From assembly GCA_041288095.1 (NCBI GenBank), contig JBGGMJ010000190.1, forward strand, positions 1 to 37,818: 37,818 bases of DNA, in the 5' to 3' direction. Shown one piece after another: positions 3,001 to 18,000 of the stretch (position 1 is the first letter of the stretch; each line of letters begins with the position of its first letter). Position numbers: made by a program. The DNA comes from Myxococcota bacterium. Its GTDB lineage: Bacteria > Myxococcota > XYA12-FULL-58-9 > JALHOP01.

Positions 3001-6000
3001 ACGCGCGAGGCGGTCGGTGTCACCATGATCGCGACGAGCTGGCCCCGGCGCTGGACGATGCGGGCGCGGCCGGCGACGTAGCTCGAGCTGCCGACATGTT
3101 CCCAGCGGCCGGACAGGCTGTTCAGGTCGAGCTGGAAGACCTCTTTGCTGGGCTTACCGTCGGCGTCGAAGCCGCCGACATAAGTGATCTTCTCCTCGGA
3201 GAGAAACACCTGGCCCATGCCCACTGCCTTGGGTAGCGCGGGCAGCGTGTACCATTTCTCGCCCTGCGCGGTGTCGCACAGGTAGAGCTTGCCGTCGCGC
3301 GCGTTGCCCGGTCCGACGACGAAGACCCGGCGGTCGCTGGCCACCGAAGCGCCGGTCGTGTCCTCGGGCGGGGCGCTGCGCTCGATCCACTTCTGATGCT
3401 GGAGGCGGCGGAAGGCGCGCTCGACGATCGGCATGCGGAAGTCATCGCCCTTCTTCTCTTCGGCGAGCTTGGTCACACCGTCGGTCACGTAGAGGTTGCG
3501 ATCGACGATGGCGATGACCGGCCAAGCCGCGGGCTTCGCCATCTCGGTACCATAGCGCCACTGGTCGGGGGCGAAACCGGTGTGCGCGGCGTTGCTCAAG
3601 GGATACGTGAAGACGGCTGCGCTCGTCTTGCCGTCGGTGTAAGCGCCGCCGTACAGCCGCACCTCGTCGTCGATCACGGCCATGGACACGCCGTTCGGCG
3701 GGAGCTTGTCGGGCGTCGCGATCTCGCGGAAGCACGCGCGTCCGTTGACGCTGTCTTCGATCCACAGGCGCGTCTGGCCGCCTTCGGTGCGCTGGCTCGT
3801 GAGCAGGATGATGCGGTCACGCCACACCGCGACTGAGCACAAGTCGTCGGCGAGACCGGTCGGCGGGCCGGGCGCTTCAGTCGCCTTGAGGCGCGGCGCG
3901 CAGAGGTTACGGAGCAGGCTCGAGAGAGGCTGCGCGCCGGTGCTGCCGGCGCCGAAGTTGAACAAGCCGCCGAGAAACGACTTCTCCACGACCTGGGGCG
4001 TCTGCGCGGTGCGTAAGAGCAGATCGACGACGGACACAGCCTCCTTGGCGAAGGGGCCTTCCTCGACGACATCGCTGCCGCTCATCAGCGTGGCGTCGCG
4101 GTCTTTGACGTAGAGCGTGGCCGGCTGCGGGCGATTTCCGCTATAGAAGACAGAAAGCCACTTGTCGAGCGCCGCGCTGCGCATCTCTTCTTGCTTCCAG
4201 GAGGGGTAGCGCTGGGTGCCCATGTCCGAGAAGGCGGAGGTCGCCTCCCTCAGGTAATCCTGAGTCACGCGGTCGCGTGCGACCGGAGGGAAGACCCAGG
4301 TCTCGCTGGCTCGCGAGCCTCTGCCGACGACGATGGGAAAGAGGTTGTCACCGGCGGCGATCGCGAACACCGTATCGTTGTTGCGGCGACCCATGGCGAG
4401 CCGCTCGGCGGGGCCGGCCGAGACCGCGTCGCACAATGGTCCGATGATCTTCTTGCGGATGGGCTGCAAGAGCTCGTGCGCGTCGCCAGGGGCCGCGGAG
4501 CGCAGCGTATCGACGCTGCGGCGCAGGGACGGGGCTTCGAAGATCGGAAATGGATGAGCGTTGATCATTGTGGTCACTTACCCGGCGACTGGTTGGAGCG
4601 TTCCCAGCAGCGTAGGGCGACGTTCGCGAACTGGTGGACGAATTGCGCGAGGTTGCGCGCGTACAGCGAGTTGTCACCGAACTGCAGTACGCCTTTGCAC
4701 TCGGCGCCGATGCCCGCGGCGACGACGCTGTAACCCTTGGCGACTGCTTTCTGCAGAGTGCTGTGCGCGCCCGGCAGACCTTGGCCGTCGCCGAACGAAA
4801 CGATCTGACCGATGTCGGCTTCGATCATGTCGAGCAGCGCCGCGCCTTCGGCGATGCCGCGCTCGTCGTCGGTGGCGTCGCCTTCGCAGCGGATCTGATG
4901 GAGCAGGTGCGCCTTGAGCTCCTCGTTCCATTCCTGGTCGAAGCCGGCGTGTAGACGCACGCGATCCGAGTAGCCGATGACCGCGATCTTGATGTTTTGA
5001 TCGACCGCCTTGAGCGCATCGCCGTAGGCAATCAGCGCCTCGATGTTGGCGCGCGCCTTGTCGCTGTCGCCCATGCTGGACGACTCGTCGATGGCGAGCA
5101 CCACTTGTGCGCGGATCTCGTCGCTGCCCTTGTTCTTCTTGAAGATGTTCAAGACCGGCATCTTTTGCGCGAGGCCCGACACGTAGAGCGGGATCTGATT
5201 TTCGTCGAGCAGTGGACCGGAGGTCTGCTTGCGCAGGCGCTCCATGCCGCCGGCGCGTGGCAGCGACATGGACACGGCGTCGCGCAGGCGCGAAGCGGTG
5301 CCGTCGCGCTGATGCTTCGCCCAGAGCTCGGCGACTTTTGCCCGGCAAGCGCGGTAGCTCGCGGTCGACGTCGCCTTCTGTTGGGCGAGCTCGAGCTGCT
5401 TGCACACGCCGTCGTAAATGGCGCGCGTGGCGAGCTGATCGACGTCGCGCGCGTCGCCGGTCGAGCCCAAGACTTCGTTCGGCTCGTTGGTGGTCGGGAG
5501 TGCCGCCTCGAGGCGCAGCGATGACGCCATGGGGCCGGGCGAGCCAGCCGCCGACAACGGGGTGTCGAGGATGGCCGTGCCGATGCCCGCGCCCTTCGCT
5601 TCGACGCGTCCGCGGAAGCGGCCTTGGTTGCTGACGAGGCACTTCGTGAGGAGGCTCGCCGCGCCGTCGACCGCGCCGCGGAAGGAGGTCACGTGCATGC
5701 CGAAATCGCCGGCGACCGACTTCAGGTTCTTGGCCTCGCTGAAGCCGAGCATGGCGACGCCGACGCCGTTGGCACGGGCTTGATCGATGAGGGCGCGGAT
5801 CTCGCCGGCGTTGTTCACCTGCGCGTCCGTCATGATGAGGATGAGCTTGTCGTTCGACTTCGATGTGAACTGGCCGAGCGCGGTGTTGATCGCTGGGATG
5901 ATGATGGTGCCGCCGTTGGCGTTGCCGCACACACGGTAGGTCGCGTCCGCCGAGTCCGGCGTCAGCGGCTGGCTCATCGGTTTGTGAACCCAGACCTGGG

Positions 6001-15000: not shown

Positions 15001-18000
15001 GCTTGTAGGCGAGGGCCAGCGGCAGCAGGGTGTCGGCCATGCTGGGTGTGAGGTCGAAGCCGGTGGTGGCGACGCGTTGGCTCACGTCGGCTTGGCTTAA
15101 GCCCATGACCCGCATCCACACCGGCGGTGTGCCGTCGGCGAACCGCGGAAGCTTGGCGAGCGCCGGGCTCTTGGCCTCGTCGAAGAGCAAGCGAGCCGCG
15201 TGCGCTACCGCTTGGTCAGCTGGCACGTGCGCGGCAAGGAGCGTCGCGGCGCCGGCGAAGTCGCGGGAGCGTTGCAGCTTGAGCAAACCGATCTGGGGGG
15301 CTTCGGCGTGGATCTCGGTGGCGACGCGCTCGATGAGGGCGCGCAGCTCGGGCGAGGCAGCGGCCGGGATGAGGCTGAAAGCGTCGCTCAAGCTCGGTGA
15401 GTCGAAGCGGATCTCGGTTAGCAAGGCGCGCTCGCGCGCCGGGGGTGTGCGCCGCGTCCGGTCCGCTCCAGCGGTCGCCGAGAAGTAGATGCGACTCTCG
15501 GGGTGGACCGGAACGGTCACGGCCTGACCATCTTTCATGATGGTCAGCGAGGTCTTCTCGACGAGCCGTATGAGGGCCTCCTGGCGCTCGAGCGACAGGT
15601 GGTCGATGTGGTCGAAATAGAGGATCTTGCCGTTCAGCAACGCATCGGTGATGACGCCGGGCACGAACTCGACGCTGCCGTCCTTCTTGAAGACTGGGCG
15701 CTCGATGAGGCTCTGCGGATCGACGCCCGGGTGGCAGGTGACGGTGACGAGGTCGCGCCCGAAGCGGCGAGCGAGCTCGTTCACGAGGCTCGTGGAACCC
15801 GCCTGACCGGGAGCGGTGAACATGACCGGCTCGCCGGCGAGATGCGCGGCTTCGGCCTGCGCCATGGCTTCGACCTGCGCGCCGATGGGCGTCCAGCCGC
15901 CGTCTGGGGTCGCCGCCGTGAGGGGCTGCGGGGCGGGATGACCGTCGTTCGTGATCACCGCGCGGAGCGCCGCCTGTGAGCCTTCGCTCGCGAGGCGCGT
16001 ACCGTAGATGCCCCAGATTGCGTTCGAGATGTCCTGCGGTTGCGGCGTCGGCAGGTTCTTCAGACGCCGCGCGACGCGCTCGAGCATCGGGTAAGCGAGC
16101 GGAAACCCGCGGCCGAAGTCGATCTGCTGCTCGGGCTGGTCGCTCGTTTGCCCAGCCTTGATGGTCTCGTGTTTGTCGGCGAGCTTGCTCGCCAGTGCAC
16201 GGCTGATGCCGACGCGCTCGCTGAGCAGGCGTACGTGATCGTCGCGCGTATAAGCGCTCACCTCGGTCAGAGCGCAGACGGAGGTCAGCTCCGCGCTGCA
16301 ACGCGCGCGGTTGCTGGTCATCAGTACGAGGCGAAAATCGGGGTGCACCGGCACGATCTTGCCGGAGACTGGGTGGTGGAACTCCGCCACGCCCTTGGCG
16401 AGACCGGAGAGGATCGCGAGCACGTCTTTTTCCGCCTGCTCGAGACACTCGGCGACGAATACACCGCCGTTCATGATGCACTCGGTGAGCGGCCCGTGGT
16501 GGACACGCAAGCGTCCCTGGGCGTCAGGGCGCAGGGCGCCGGCGAGCGAGTCGAGCGAGGTAATGCGCGAGATGCGTTGGTGACGGTAGGGAGTGCCGGC
16601 GACCTCGAAGAACCAGCGGGCCGTGGCGCCGCCATCGACGCCTTCGGGCAGCGAGACCAGCGCCGGGACGCCCGACTTGAGGACGTCCGCGAGTGAGCGG
16701 ATGACCTCTTCCTGGGGCCGCAGGATAGTCAGCTCGGCGGCTTTGTCCGACGGAACCGGCAGCGTCAACGTGCCGACACGTAGCTCGCCGTTGCCGTGCT
16801 CGACCTTCTGGGCCGCTTTCAGCGCGCTCTCGAGGCCCTCTTGGGTGACTCGGGTCTCACGTGCCTCGTTGACGGCACGATGGGTGCGGTCAAGGACGTC
16901 AGCGACGACGTTTTGCACCTTCTGTTGGCGTGCGCCCTCGGGTTGGTCCGGGGCCTTCTGCTGGTCGCGCTCCGGGGTCTGGGCGTTGTGATCGCCTGCC
17001 GTCGGGCGCTGCCATGGTCGAAATCCTGCTCCAGCGGTATCGGTCATGGCTCGTGTTCGTCGTGGGTGATGATGTCCGATTGGCTGCGTGGGAGCGCCGC
17101 CTAAGCATCGGAGTTATCGTTCAGTCCGCCCCAGGGTTGCGCCGTGCGACATGACAGACCCCCCGCGATCGGGTGTCAGAGTGGCACCGGGAAGATCGGG
17201 GTCAGAAGCACCCCGACGACGTGTCGGCCCGATAACAGGAATCGAGACCAACGAAATTGGGGTTAGTCATGGCCATTCAGCCCGCGCACACCTTCCATCA
17301 CGCTTCGCAGGCCCACGCCGCCCTCATGGCCGCCGGCAGCCAGGTCGCCGAGCTCGGAGCACGGGTCACCGGTGCCCTGAAGGCGTCCGCTGCAACCCTC
17401 GACACCTACGGGCCACGGGGCGCGACTCCATCGTTCGCGCATGACCTTCGCACTCATGCAGGCGCGCTGGAGCAGTCGCTCGCGGGCATCGCTGCCCTCG
17501 TTGCGATGGGCGACAAATACTACGCGCACGTGGCATTGCATGGTGGCGAGACCGCGTTCATCGCCAACATGACTGAGACGCTACCTTATCTCGAGTCGAC
17601 GGCGGCCGAGTTGGAGCGAGCCATCCCCTTCGCGGAAGACCAACAACGGACCGCGGGGGTCGTCGCTCAGGTGAGCCACGTTGTCCAGGCAGGGGACGCC
17701 GTCGCCGCCACCATTGACGACGTGAATGCAAACCTCGCGAGGACCATCGAGCACTTAGCGAGCCGGGCGGCCAGCACTCCCGAGGCGCCGAGTCGCGTCG
17801 ACGCGACCGCTGCACTCCGCGCCGCCAACGCCACGAGCCGGGCGGACCTCGAGCGTTACAGCGCGCAGCTCGTAGCCGATCGCCAGCGCGGTCGAAACAC
17901 GAACCCCGCGGCCAAGGGCTGAGCCTAGCCAAAGGTCCCGGATCGGCGTAAACGACCGGCACTCATGCCACGTCGTAACGACCTGAAACGTATCCTCGTC

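What a model noticed while it worked through the whole genome (the two positions that open the first line are those of the whole stretch)
4574..17047. Midasin-like giant: six AAA+ modules, linker and MIDAS tail in one bacterial protein
The 4,157-codon gene on the minus strand of C190 encodes six tandem AAA_5 modules, a ~1,550-aa region with no family match, and two C-terminal VWA/MIDAS domains. This is the domain order of eukaryotic midasin (Rea1/MDN1). Outside a tiny family of ~4,150-aa proteins from uncultured Myxococcota-like genomes, its nearest relatives are midasins. A Kelch-propeller gene lies directly downstream.
Evidence so far: Windowed Pfam gave AAA_5 at aa 153-249, 417-513, 687-791, 1032-1160, 1516-1636 and 1842-1927 (E 4.7e-15 to 3.2e-3) and VWA at 3624-3776 and 3982-4088. 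hhalign links all six segments at 91-99%. Walker A and B are invariant in modules 3 and 4 in 8 of 8 sequences. PDB phmmer gave 9 hits, the top 5 midasin at E 9e-39 to 5e-38, then NorQ/CbbQ at 2e-10 or weaker. An exhaustive profile search of 1.84e9 proteins put the family in the top 12 and 4.4-5.8-kaa proteins next; of 6 of these tested, 5 carry midasin-only lid families. The AF2 model of aa 381-1400 (pLDDT 75) gave a Foldseek PDB top 50 of dynein/Rea1 rings only. The VWA2 profile hits midasin MIDAS at E 9e-11. Open frames of 4,123-4,209 aa occ [...]
(Added by a program. Inside this text positions count along the whole contig: contig position 1 is position 1 of the stretch shown here. "Call 12" and the like, gene names such as g00115 and contig names such as C1 are that model's own, and its searches are not shown. 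The text may have been shortened before it was handed on; [...] marks where a part breaks off. The agent that wrote the report below was given it as the finding of a first reader that could run no searches.)

Follow-up and report, generated by a model that had tools for sequence, protein, structure and literature searches.

The report
Myxobacterial midasin-like six-AAA giant protein
A soil myxobacterium encodes a 4,157-residue protein laid out like the eukaryotic ribosome-assembly motor midasin (a six-unit ATPase ring, a long arm and metal-dependent gripping domains), and it always occurs with a small propeller-protein partner, which bears on where such one-chain motors came from.

Summary
The 4,157-codon minus-strand gene is real. 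It encodes six AAA_5 modules, about 1,300 residues with no family match, a Gly/Pro/Thr-rich tether and two VWA domains with complete MIDAS motifs.

- Only modules 3 and 4 are complete ATPase sites; their catalytic residues and arginine fingers are invariant in 13 of 13 sequences.
- The modules alternate between two types, in the same register as midasin's. Odd modules carry midasin's odd-module lid.
- VWA2 and modules 3 and 5 hit only midasin among solved structures. Modules 1, 2 and 4 are as close to other prokaryotic AAA_5 proteins.
- There is no linker similarity and no D/E-rich tract, and trees could not resolve 1:1 module orthology.
- The Kelch-propeller gene downstream is found in exactly the same 9 of 401 sampled Myxococcota genomes as the giant. 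In the more distant relatives, a DcrB/DUF1795-like gene and a ClpB/ClpV-like gene lie between the two.

I read it as a one-chain MoxR/midasin-class mechanoenzyme working with that partner. It has midasin's layout but is not a midasin orthologue.

This scan has already noted single-chain six-AAA MIDAS giants on other DNA, mostly Omnitrophota. This is a separate Myxococcota family.

The parts
4574..17047 (-). Giant gene, 4157 codons (P0001)
   Evidence: ORF, translation. Full-length relatives of 3880-4336 aa.
15920..16750 (-). AAA+ module B1 (aa 100-376), odd type, dead: the P-loop Lys is replaced and there is no Walker B Glu and no Arg finger
   Evidence: AAA_5 at 153-249, E 2.9e-3. hhalign 98.6% to midasin AAA1. 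Motifs.
15083..15919 (-). AAA+ module B2 (aa 377-655), dead P-loop (GQxGxT), keeps Arg R540
   Evidence: AAA_5 at 417-513, E 2e-13. Motifs.
14048..15082 (-). AAA+ module B3 (aa 656-1000), live site: Walker A K697/T698, Walker B D762/E763, sensor-1 N805, sensor-2 R899
   Evidence: Residues invariant in 13 of 13. Module profile hits only midasin in the PDB, 5 of 5 hits at E 4.7e-53 to 2.2e-47.
12647..14047 (-). AAA+ module B4 (aa 1001-1467), live site: K1042/T1043, D1103/E1104, N1157. Its R1173 is the predicted finger for the B3 site. Carries a long C-terminal insert.
   Evidence: AAA_5 at 1032-1160, E 6.9e-15. Residues invariant in 13 of 13. PDB: midasin, then CbbQ/NorQ.
11660..12646 (-). AAA+ module B5 (aa 1468-1796), dead P-loop but the best conserved module. 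Its R1636 is the predicted finger for the B4 site.
   Evidence: AAA_5 at 1516-1636. 5 of 5 PDB hits are midasin. Conservation and R1636.
10658..11659 (-). AAA+ module B6 (aa 1797-2130), dead and the most divergent
   Evidence: AAA_5 at 1842-1927, E 6.5e-4 and 7.8e-3. hhalign 96.9% to midasin AAA1.
6683..10657 (-). Linker (aa 2131-3455): Ala/Leu/Glu/Arg-rich, no family match. The proximal part is conserved; the rest is 14-29% identical across clades.
   Evidence: No Pfam hit. hhalign to midasin linker 0.2%. Composition, conservation, weak internal repeats. Atlas gave nothing.
6293..6682 (-). Gly/Pro/Thr-rich low-complexity tether (aa 3456-3585), at the position of midasin's D/E-rich tract but not acidic
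   Evidence: Composition: G 17.7%, P 8.5%, T 8.5%, D+E 12.3%. Identity across clades 9-20%.
5603..6250 (-). VWA1 (aa 3600-3815) with a complete MIDAS motif (DQSGS 3629-3633, T3714, D3741)
   Evidence: Pfam VWA. Invariant columns. No PDB hit at E<=0.1.
4577..5260 (-). VWA2 (aa 3930-4157), midasin-type MIDAS domain (DESSS 3987-3991, T4059, D4087)
   Evidence: Invariant in 8 of 8 sequences. 8 of 8 PDB hits are midasin MIDAS chains or full midasins. hhalign 95.6%.
2982..4577 (-). Partner gene (P0010, 531 aa): unmatched N-domain of about 240 aa plus a Kelch beta-propeller. Its GTG start overlaps the giant's stop codon by two bases.
   Evidence: Coordinates. Kelch hits. Orthologues at 26-34% identity next to distant giants. 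Same 9 of 401 genomes as the giant.

Best explanation
What it is. The gene encodes a soluble, single-chain, hetero-hexameric AAA+ mechanoenzyme of the MoxR/CbbQ-NorQ/midasin class.

How it is built. Six AAA_5 modules, alternating between two types, should close into one ring. Only two adjacent sites can hydrolyse ATP. These are B3, with its arginine finger supplied by B4, and B4, with its finger supplied by B5. The other four modules are structural. A helical arm of about 1,300 residues and a flexible Gly/Pro/Thr tether carry two VWA domains. Each VWA has a complete MIDAS metal site.

How it most likely works (inferred). By analogy with midasin, CbbQO and NorQD, a MIDAS site grips an acidic residue of a protein ligand. 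ATP turnover at B3/B4 moves the arm relative to the ring. That movement pulls on or remodels the ligand.

Likely partner. The strictly co-distributed partner, made of an N-domain and a Kelch propeller, is the most likely ligand or substrate adaptor. Ancestrally the system also included a DcrB/DUF1795-like small protein and a ClpB/ClpV-like double-ring unfoldase that lacks a ClpP-docking loop. That points to extraction followed by unfolding of some client. The window's genus has lost these two genes.

Evolution. The family belongs to a prokaryotic radiation of fused AAA_5+VWA giants related to midasin. It shares midasin's N-[odd-even]x3-arm-tether-MIDAS-C layout, but it is not shown to be midasin's orthologue.

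Shown versus inferred. Shown: the domain anatomy, the motif states, the partner's co-distribution and the similarity rankings. Inferred: ring closure, force generation, MIDAS-partner binding and the cellular role.
For: - Six AAA_5 stretches and two VWA domains.
- Every module matches a midasin module at 96.9-99.7% by hhalign.
- Walker A, Walker B and sensor-1 of B3 and B4, and the fingers R1173 and R1636, are invariant in 13 of 13 sequences. The P-loop Lys is lost in B1 and B2, and B5 and B6 are degenerate.
- The MIDAS residues DxSxS, T and D are invariant in both VWA domains.
- VWA2's 8 PDB hits are all midasin MIDAS chains or full midasins.
- B3's and B5's PDB hits are all midasin, 5 of 5 each.
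- Odd/even alternation is seen in the family (B1-B5 141-145; B2-B4 90-94) and in midasin (odd-odd 306-365; even-even 294-471), both.
- AAA_lid_7 is the lid after midasin AAA1/3/5. It is found in 4 of 9 odd-module lid segments and 0 of 9 even ones. It is also found in P0017's B1 lid and P0015's B3 lid.
- The partner is found in exactly the 9 of 401 sampled Myxococcota genomes that hold the giant, and in 0 of the other 392.
- The partner lies in the giant's cluster in 8 of 9 loci that have downstream sequence.
- The finger-in-pore and MIDAS-on-ring mechanism of NorQD and midasin is described in PMC13036017 (passages).
Against: - No structure could be predicted here, so ring closure and the fold of the arm are untested.
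- The linker has no detectable similarity to midasin's.
- There is no acidic tract.
- B1 and B6 match AAA_5 only weakly on their own.
- The partner's N-domain has no invariant acidic residue and no known fold match. Nothing shows that it binds a MIDAS site.
- In one genome (G074) the partner trio is not next to the giant.
- The 9 carrier genomes fall in only three families and 7 genera, so the co-distribution counts few independent events.
- There are no expression data.
- The neighbouring genes give no hint of the client.
Confidence: 0.6

Rival explanations
1. It is a true midasin: either a descendant of a eukaryote-to-bacterium transfer of MDN1, or the direct bacterial ancestor or sister of midasin. 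In that case each module would be orthologous to midasin AAA1-6 and the arm would be a diverged midasin linker.
For: - Best whole-protein hits outside the family are midasins.
- B3, B5 and VWA2 hit only midasin in the PDB.
- The odd/even register and the N-ring to C-MIDAS order are the same.
- The B3 P-loop GPASSGKT resembles midasin AAA3 GPTSSGKT, and the B4 P-loop GxTGTGKT resembles AAA2/4 GETGxGKT.
- A sensor-2 'RD' motif is shared with midasin odd modules and is absent in the three MoxR proteins compared.
- Myxococcota are inferred donors of about 3.9% of the LECA proteome in PMC13468126 (passages).
Against: - No 1:1 module pairing. B3 is best with AAA5, B5 with AAA3, and B2 with AAA1.
- Trees leave all deep nodes open, with long-branch warnings.
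- B1, B2 and B4 are as near to an archaeal-labelled giant, to P0053 or to a single-module NorQ/CbbQ-like protein.
- Linker similarity is 0.2%.
- AAA_lid_5 and MDN1_4th are not found.
- There is no D/E tract.
- G+C equals that of the host.
- The family is patchy, 9 of 401 genomes, unlike an essential ribosome factor.
Confidence: 0.15
2. It is an independent, convergent fusion. A prokaryotic two-module AAA_5 unit was triplicated and joined to its VWA partner within bacteria. On this view the likeness to midasin reflects shared building blocks, not a shared six-module ancestor. This rival concerns origin only; the mechanism would be the same as in the best explanation.
For: - Other prokaryotic giants show clear, separate triplications of a two-module unit. 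P0053 has near-identical P-loops (GPTGVGKS, GETGAGKT) three times. P0031 has (GET, GPT) three times in the opposite register.
- In the tree, P0053's three odd-numbered modules and its three even-numbered modules each form a tight clade, and so do P0031's.
- Per-module scores are mixed.
- Earlier scan notes report many Omnitrophota giants and a two-module AAA plus MIDAS-partner pair (unchecked here).
Against: - The family's odd modules are less like each other (B1-B3 67-83; B3-B5 70) than B3 is like midasin AAA5/AAA3 (191/175). This is not what a recent internal triplication gives.
- The chain order and register equal midasin's.
Confidence: 0.4
3. It is a biological-conflict (anti-phage or inter-bacterial) system of the MoxR-vWA-beta-propeller kind described for multicellular prokaryotes. 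On this view the giant is the regulated chaperone pair and the propeller protein is the sensor or effector carrier.
For: - It has the same three domain kinds: a MoxR-clade AAA+, a vWA domain and a beta-propeller.
- In the ancestral cluster there is a second AAA+ of another clade, as in the FtsH-type ternary systems (PMC7159879, passages).
- The distribution is patchy, in a social, multicellular phylum.
- The partner's N-domain is poorly conserved.
Against: - No PADLOC model matches the giant, the partner or the DcrB-like protein (0 of these 3).
- Pfam bpMoxR (PF20030) is not among the giant's hits.
- The propeller is not fused to the vWA domain, as that system requires.
- No effector domain (nuclease, peptidase, TIR) is present in the cluster.
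- The neighbours are housekeeping genes.
Confidence: 0.15
4. It is an enzyme activase or metal-insertion chaperone like CbbQO, NorQD or CoxDE, dedicated to one metabolic enzyme.
For: - NorQ and CbbQ are the next PDB relatives after midasin.
- B2's best single-sequence match is a NorQ/CbbQ-like protein of a carrier genome.
- A MIDAS-bearing VWA partner is the hallmark of those systems (PMC13036017, passages).
Against: - No conserved client enzyme gene lies next to the cluster across the 9 loci. The only conserved neighbours are the propeller, DcrB-like and Clp-like genes.
- The size, the arm and the two-site ring have no counterpart in those systems.
Confidence: 0.1

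Closest known systems
Midasin (Rea1 / Mdn1 / MDN1), the eukaryotic pre-60S remodelling AAA+ protein
   Same: - Six AAA_5-type modules in one chain starting near the N-terminus, alternating between two types in the same register.
- The odd-module lid (AAA_lid_7).
- A very long non-AAA arm after module 6, then a low-complexity tether, then a C-terminal MIDAS domain with DxSxS, T and D.
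- Midasin is the best or only PDB relative of the whole protein, of B3, of B5 and of VWA2.
   Different: - Only 2 of 6 P-loops are intact, whereas all six are intact in the 59 midasins that I selected for having six.
- There is no AAA_lid_5 or MDN1_4th.
- There is no linker similarity.
- The tether is Gly/Pro/Thr-rich, not 44-47% D/E.
- There are two VWA domains.
- It is about 700 residues shorter.
- It is rare and patchy rather than universal.
- The partner is an N-domain plus Kelch propeller. From recall, midasin's ligands Rsa4 and Ytm1 are UBL plus WD40 propeller proteins; no sequence likeness was found.
CbbQ-CbbO and NorQ-NorD (single-module MoxR-class AAA+ hexamers with a separate VWA/MIDAS partner)
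   Same: - The same AAA_5 clade; these are the next PDB hits after midasin.
- A MIDAS-bearing VWA domain acts as the substrate grip.
- The likely pull or twist mechanism, with the VWA docked on the ring (PMC13036017, passages).
   Different: Those are homo-hexamers of about 270-aa protomers with a separate VWA protein and a known client enzyme. Here ring and VWA are one chain, with four dead modules, a 1,300-aa arm and no client enzyme gene.
Other prokaryotic single-chain six-AAA_5 + VWA giants: P0031 (NCBI MFC1753351.1, labelled Thermoproteota archaeon), P0053, and the Omnitrophota giants noted earlier in this scan
   Same: - Six fused AAA_5 modules of two alternating types plus a C-terminal VWA.
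- They score like midasins against the family profile (195.7 and 180.2 bits).
- They are the best matches of module B4.
   Different: - P0031 and P0053 have all six P-loops intact, long N-terminal extensions or inserts within the ring, and no 1,300-aa arm between ring and VWA.
- According to the earlier notes, which I did not check, the Omnitrophota giants carry fused propellers, protease-like domains and acidic tethers, and some are membrane-bound.
MoxR-vWA-beta-propeller ternary systems (Kaur, Burroughs, Iyer, Aravind 2020, PMC7159879)
   Same: The association of a MoxR-clade AAA+, a vWA domain and a beta-propeller protein, in bacteria with a multicellular habit.
   Different: There the propeller is fused to the vWA protein and the MoxR is a single module of the bpMoxR type. 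Here the AAA+ and vWA are fused, the propeller is a separate Kelch protein, and PF20030 is not matched.
Dynein heavy chain
   Same: A one-chain six-AAA ring in which only some sites hydrolyse ATP and others are structural (recalled general knowledge).
   Different: There is no microtubule-binding stalk or dynein-specific family above threshold. PDB sequence hits do not include dynein.

Membership tests
Midasin (Rea1/MDN1) | Six tandem AAA+ modules in one polypeptide | tested here: met
   AAA_5 in 6 stretches. Each module scores 96.9-99.7% by hhalign to a midasin module.
Midasin (Rea1/MDN1) | Module-by-module orthology to AAA1-AAA6 | tested here: inconclusive
   The odd/even register is shared, but best partners are not 1:1 (B3 to AAA5, B5 to AAA3, B2 to AAA1). 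Deep nodes of both trees are open, with long-branch warnings.
Midasin (Rea1/MDN1) | Six intact P-loops | tested here: not met
   Only B3 and B4 match G-x4-GK[ST].
Midasin (Rea1/MDN1) | Midasin-specific lids (AAA_lid_7, AAA_lid_5, MDN1_4th) | tested here: inconclusive
   AAA_lid_7 is found in odd-module lids. It passes the cut-off in G001 B3 (30.3 bits), P0015 and P0017, and is weak in the window protein (E 0.04-0.15). AAA_lid_5 and MDN1_4th are not found in the family.
Midasin (Rea1/MDN1) | Homologous helical linker of about 1,700 aa | tested here: not met
   Profile-profile probability is 0.2% outside the VWA domains.
Midasin (Rea1/MDN1) | D/E-rich region before the MIDAS domain | tested here: not met
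   The maximum D+E in any 200 aa is 0.18-0.23 in 5 family members, against 0.44-0.47 in 2 midasins.
Midasin (Rea1/MDN1) | C-terminal MIDAS domain (DxSxS, T, D) of midasin type | tested here: met
   VWA2 residues are invariant in 8 of 8 sequences. All 8 PDB hits are midasin MIDAS chains or full midasins, at E 9.4e-7 to 0.01.
Midasin (Rea1/MDN1) | Acts on UBL-propeller assembly factors of the pre-60S particle | not testable with these tools
MoxR-class AAA+ with VWA partner (CbbQO / NorQD type) | AAA_5 / helix-2-insert-clade ATPase module | tested here: met
   AAA_5 hits. NorQ and CbbQ are PDB hits at 6.9e-10 to 5.7e-8 for the whole protein and 6e-14 to 1.3e-9 for B4.
MoxR-class AAA+ with VWA partner (CbbQO / NorQD type) | Homo-hexamer of single-module protomers with the VWA on a separate protein | tested here: not met
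   All parts are in one ORF. A search for shorter forms found only contig-end fragments, 3 of 4 hits, the fourth being a midasin fragment.
MoxR-vWA-beta-propeller ternary system (PMC7159879) | [quoted passage not shown] | tested here: not met
   The propeller is a separate gene. PF20030 is not among the giant's Pfam hits at E<=1.

The most novel reading that the evidence does not exclude
The Myxococcota family would be the closest surviving bacterial relative of midasin. On this reading the complete plan arose in bacteria: N-terminal [odd-even]x3 ring, C-terminal arm, flexible tether, MIDAS grip and a propeller-protein ligand. It then reached the eukaryotic stem from a myxobacterium-like donor. 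Midasin, and through it dynein, would therefore not be a eukaryotic invention built from a single-module MoxR.
Probability: 0.15. Interest if true: 0.9.

Novelty: new variant of a known kind. Interest (0 to 1): 0.72.

Why it matters
The prevailing view. [quoted passage not shown] Others treat midasin simply as dynein's closest eukaryotic relative (PMC3791482, PMC3160578, PMC2837639; passages).

What this family adds. A soluble bacterial protein of midasin's size and domain order shows that the one-chain ring-arm-MIDAS design exists outside eukaryotes. It has the same odd/even module register, a midasin-type MIDAS domain and a dedicated propeller partner. It sits in a phylum that a recent study infers as a major gene donor to LECA (PMC13468126, passages).

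Experimental value. The protein has only two live ATP sites, and one carrier genome (G084) is assembled in 2 contigs. That would make it a simpler, genetically tractable model for how such rings turn ATP hydrolysis into a pull on a MIDAS-bound ligand.

Literature check. Six full-text searches found no paper describing a prokaryotic six-AAA midasin-like protein. I could not read Iyer et al. 2004, Garbarino & Gibbons 2002 (not held) or the later part of PMC7203096. The search listing counts 9 mentions of 'midasin' in that paper, and a search of its held text found none. Any of these could contain a prior mention.

Tried and rejected
No model and no fold search could be made.
- Complex prediction (VWA2 with the partner) was unavailable.
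- Module phylogeny was tried twice: LG+G4 on 124 rows and LG+C20 PMSF on 63 rows. Every module type is a clade, but the deep branching is unsupported and changes between runs, with long-branch warnings. I draw no origin from these trees and did not run AU tests on them.
- ESM Atlas gave no usable hit for the linker or for the partner's N-domain.
- PADLOC gave no hit for the giant, the partner or the DcrB-like protein.
- PDB profile searches gave nothing for VWA1 or for the DcrB-like protein. The broad C-terminal profile A4 gave only one hit.
- Expression: no RNA holder was listed. There were 4 DNA runs, from soil and cave metagenomes in 2 studies.
- The promoter and terminator scan of 2300-18000 gave nothing above the shuffled expectation: 0 promoter-like sites against 0.9 expected, and 11 terminator-like sites against 9.6.
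- A copy of the cluster's Clp-like and DcrB-like genes elsewhere in the window's genome was not found. The best Clp hit is a 34%-identical ClpB-like gene. The only DcrB-like match has E 2e-4. The genome is 90% complete.
- The metagenome scan added only one locus, L020.
- A gene-calling artefact is rejected. The frame is open over 4,123-4,209 codons in 7 of the 9 carrier genomes and cut in 2 (G117, G133), at 35-87% identity.

Full report
**1. The gene is real and its anatomy is as described**

The minus-strand ORF 4574..17047 has 4,157 codons and an ATG start. Its G+C (0.66-0.69) equals that of its surroundings.

Pfam on the whole protein gives:
- AAA_5 at E 5.3e-45 in six stretches
- VWA at 5.5e-10 in two stretches
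- VWA_2 at 2.1e-7

I tiled the protein in 23 windows of 350 aa. Nothing at E<=0.01 is found between aa 1926 and 3500.

Three of the six AAA matches (B1, B3 and B6) are weak alone. In profile-profile comparison, however, every module reaches 96.9-99.7% probability against its best midasin module.

**2. The family is small and confined, as far as seen, to Myxococcota**

The word-indexed search found six relatives of 4,102-4,245 aa at 35-87% identity, and then midasins at E 1e-27 to 1e-25.

The exhaustive search used a profile of aa 100-1299 from 4 sequences:
- 2,040 proteins at E<=1e-3, 730 at E<=1e-10 and 346 at E<=1e-30.
- The first 13 rows are the family: full-length members of 3,880-4,336 aa, plus fragments.
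- After a gap from 326 to 212 bits come proteins of 4.4-5.8 kaa.

I looked up ten of these proteins. Two are named midasin (Coemansia, Piedraia), one is named 'AAA family ATPase [Thermoproteota archaeon]' (P0031), and two family members carry only 'MoxR-like ATPase' or 'hypothetical protein'.

I scanned seven non-family hits by Pfam. Five carry the midasin lids AAA_lid_5 and AAA_lid_7. Two (P0031, P0053) are different giants with six AAA_5 modules and one C-terminal VWA.

In an even sample of 401 Myxococcota genomes, the family-specific segment aa 1001-1700 was found in 9, including the window's own. They fall in three families (3 of 4, 5 of 20 and 1 of 11 genomes) and 7 genera. Open frames are 4,123-4,209 codons where the contig allows.

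A search for shorter forms found only contig-end fragments and one midasin fragment.

**3. Only two ATP sites are alive**

I aligned 13 family sequences with midasin and three MoxR proteins of the same genome. The naming of the motifs follows my recall of the MoxR consensus 'P-x-A-Q-L-D-R-F', which those three MoxR proteins do show.

| Module | P-loop and catalytic residues | Arg at the finger position |
|---|---|---|
| B1 | P-loop Lys replaced; no Walker B Glu | No |
| B2 | P-loop Lys replaced | Yes (R540) |
| B3 | Intact: K697/T698, Walker B D762/E763, sensor-1 N805, sensor-2 R899 | No (Cys in 11 of 13) |
| B4 | Intact: K1042/T1043, Walker B D1103/E1104, sensor-1 N1157 | Yes (R1173) |
| B5 | P-loop and Walker B degenerate | Yes (R1636) |
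| B6 | P-loop and Walker B degenerate | No |

All the listed B3 and B4 residues, and R1173, R1636 and R540, are invariant in 13 of 13 sequences.

In AAA+ rings the neighbouring module supplies the finger. So there are two complete sites, B3 (finger from B4) and B4 (finger from B5), and they sit side by side.

B5, although dead, is the best conserved module: 30-60% identity to the distant members, against 26-50% for the others.

**4. The relation to midasin is real but partial**

*Evidence for a specific link:*
- The B3 profile has 5 PDB hits, all midasin (E 4.7e-53 to 2.2e-47).
- The B5 profile has 5 PDB hits, all midasin (7.8e-24 to 2.2e-22).
- The VWA2 profile has 8 PDB hits at E<=0.1. All are midasin MIDAS domains or full midasins (9.4e-7 to 0.01). 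The best chain, 8ql1_A, is labelled 'NDE1' by its depositors but aligns like the others.
- Midasin's modules fall into an odd set (AAA1/3/5, mutual scores 306-365) and an even set (AAA2/4/6, 294-471). The family shows the same alternation: B1-B5 141-145, B2-B4 90-94, B2-B6 68-88, against 28-51 for most cross pairs among B2-B6.
- B1, B3 and B5 score best with odd midasin modules, and B4 with AAA4.
- AAA_lid_7 follows AAA1, AAA3 and AAA5 in midasins (positions against P-loops). In the family it is found in 4 of 9 odd-lid segments and 0 of 9 even-lid segments at E<=0.1. It also lies in the B1 lid of P0017 and the B3 lid of P0015.
- The P-loops GPASSGKT (B3) and GxTGTGKT (B4) resemble midasin's GPTSSGKT (AAA3) and GETGxGKT (AAA2/4).

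*Evidence against membership:*
- Best partners are not one-to-one: B3 to AAA5, B5 to AAA3, B2 to AAA1.
- Two maximum-likelihood trees recover every module type as a clade. They leave the deep nodes unsupported and inconsistent, with long-branch warnings.
- Against single sequences, B4's best matches are modules of P0031 and P0053 (102-106, against 80-95 for midasin). B2's best is a single-module NorQ/CbbQ-like protein of a carrier genome (99, against 92). B1 ties between P0053 and midasin (88).
- The arm has 0.2% profile probability against midasin's linker. Only the two VWA domains match, at 95-96%.
- No 200-aa stretch exceeds 23% D+E, against 44-47% in two midasins. In that position there is a Gly/Pro/Thr-rich segment, aa 3456-3585.
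- AAA_lid_5 and MDN1_4th are absent.
- VWA1 has a complete MIDAS motif but no PDB relative.

**5. The other prokaryotic giants show that this design arose more than once**

P0053 carries (GPTGVGKS, GETGAGKT) three times with nearly identical repeats. P0031 carries (GET, GPT) three times in the opposite register. In the tree, the three like-numbered modules of each of these proteins cluster together.

This scan's earlier notes, which I did not check, list at least 14 findings of single-chain six-AAA MIDAS giants, mostly in Omnitrophota. They also list a two-module AAA gene followed by a MIDAS partner. None is from Myxococcota, and no look-alike window is on record.

The present family is therefore a new branch of a wider and, as far as my six literature searches show, unpublished prokaryotic class. 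It is the branch whose chain order comes nearest to midasin.

**6. A dedicated partner**

The next gene (2982..4577, minus strand, 531 aa) starts with a GTG that overlaps the giant's stop codon by two bases. Its C-terminal 290 residues are a Kelch propeller:
- Pfam Kelch and NANM families, below cut-off.
- PDB hits to KBTBD10 at 4e-5 and KLHDC2 at about 3e-3.

The first 240 or so residues match nothing.

Orthologues at 26-34% identity accompany distant giants. The word-indexed search found only 8 relatives, all of this kind.

A profile of the partner finds it in 9 of the same 401 genomes. These are exactly the nine that hold the giant; none of the other 392 has it. The nine fall in three families, so the number of independent events is small.

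Gene order across the loci:

| Gene order | Loci |
|---|---|
| giant, then partner | The window and two same-genus loci (L001, L002) |
| giant, DcrB-like, Clp-like, partner | Four loci (L004, L020, L036, L041) |
| giant, DcrB-like, partner | One locus (L035) |
| DcrB-like, Clp-like, partner on a different contig from the giant | One genome (G074: L037, L040) |

The other two genes of the cluster:
- The small protein matches Pfam DcrB (PF08786) at E 5e-7. From recall, this family was formerly DUF1795 and includes chaperones of secreted effectors.
- The 885-932-aa protein is a ClpB/ClpV-like double-ring ATPase (NCBIfam ClpV1 and ClpB models at about 1e-125, far below their cut-offs). Both rings are intact, it has a GYVG pore loop and no conserved ClpP-docking tripeptide (the motif meaning is recalled).

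The window's genome has no close copy of either gene (genome 90% complete).

**7. What it most likely does**

The anatomy is that of the MoxR-VWA remodellers. A MIDAS site grips an acidic side chain of a client, and the ring, on which the VWA domain docks, supplies the force. PMC13036017 describes this finger-in-pore arrangement for NorQD and refers to the MIDAS loop in midasin's ring (passages).

Here ring and grip are joined by a long arm and a floppy tether, as in midasin. I therefore expect a pulling or extracting machine driven by two adjacent sites.

The co-distributed propeller protein is the best candidate for the ligand or for a substrate adaptor. The ancestral presence of an unfoldase and a small chaperone-like protein suggests that something is extracted and then unfolded or handed on.

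The patchy distribution argues against a core role such as ribosome assembly. A conflict-system role remains possible but has no direct support (PMC7159879, passages; no PADLOC hit). None of this is shown experimentally, and no RNA data set was listed.

**8. Verdict**

The reading 'midasin-like' is right for the layout and for part of the sequence relationship. Membership of the midasin family fails on the linker, the acidic tract and the number of live sites. Orthology of the modules is unresolved.

The finding is a new bacterial variant of the midasin/MoxR-VWA kind, with a newly recognised obligatory partner. It is of high interest for the origin of one-chain AAA+ motors.

Noticed in passing
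P0031 (4005 aa), P0053 (4471 aa), P0151 (7557 aa): Three non-midasin giants score like midasins against the family profile. P0031 is named as from a Thermoproteota archaeon; it has P-loops (GET, GPT) three times and one C-terminal VWA. P0053 has three nearly identical two-module repeats plus TPR repeats and a VWA. These look like independent triplications of a two-module AAA_5 unit.
   Followed up: partly
L018 (G001:C77:143250-143933), about 25 kb from the giant gene of that genome: A 311-aa single-module AAA_5 protein (P-loop GPTGAGKS) is the best single-sequence match of module B2 (score 99). It groups with B2 in the quick tree (support 90).
   Followed up: partly
window 11660-12646 (module B5): The catalytically dead module B5 is the most conserved part of the whole protein (30-60% identity to distant members). 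This suggests a structural or regulatory role beyond supplying the arginine finger.
   Followed up: no
PDB chain 8ql1_A: The best solved match of VWA2 is a 279-residue chain that its depositors label 'NDE1'. It aligns over the MIDAS motif just as the midasin MIDAS chains do. The label may not describe the matched chain.
   Followed up: no
window 34016-37711 (-): A 1,231-aa protein with teneurin-type NHL repeats (TEN_NHL at 1e-37), NHL, DUF4215 and SBBP beta-propeller repeats.
   Followed up: no
window 27644-29926 (+): A Ser/Thr protein kinase domain fused to an adenylate/guanylate cyclase catalytic domain in one 760-aa ORF.
   Followed up: no
window 22345-24024 (-) and 32021-33085 (+): An Alg9-like GT22 mannosyltransferase family match (E 6e-16) and a collagen triple-helix repeat protein (E 1.7e-7). 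Both are families better known from eukaryotes.
   Followed up: no
window 17257-17922 (+): A 221-aa ORF with no Pfam match lies between the giant's start and the divergently oriented carB gene (17965-21171). It was not examined further.
   Followed up: no
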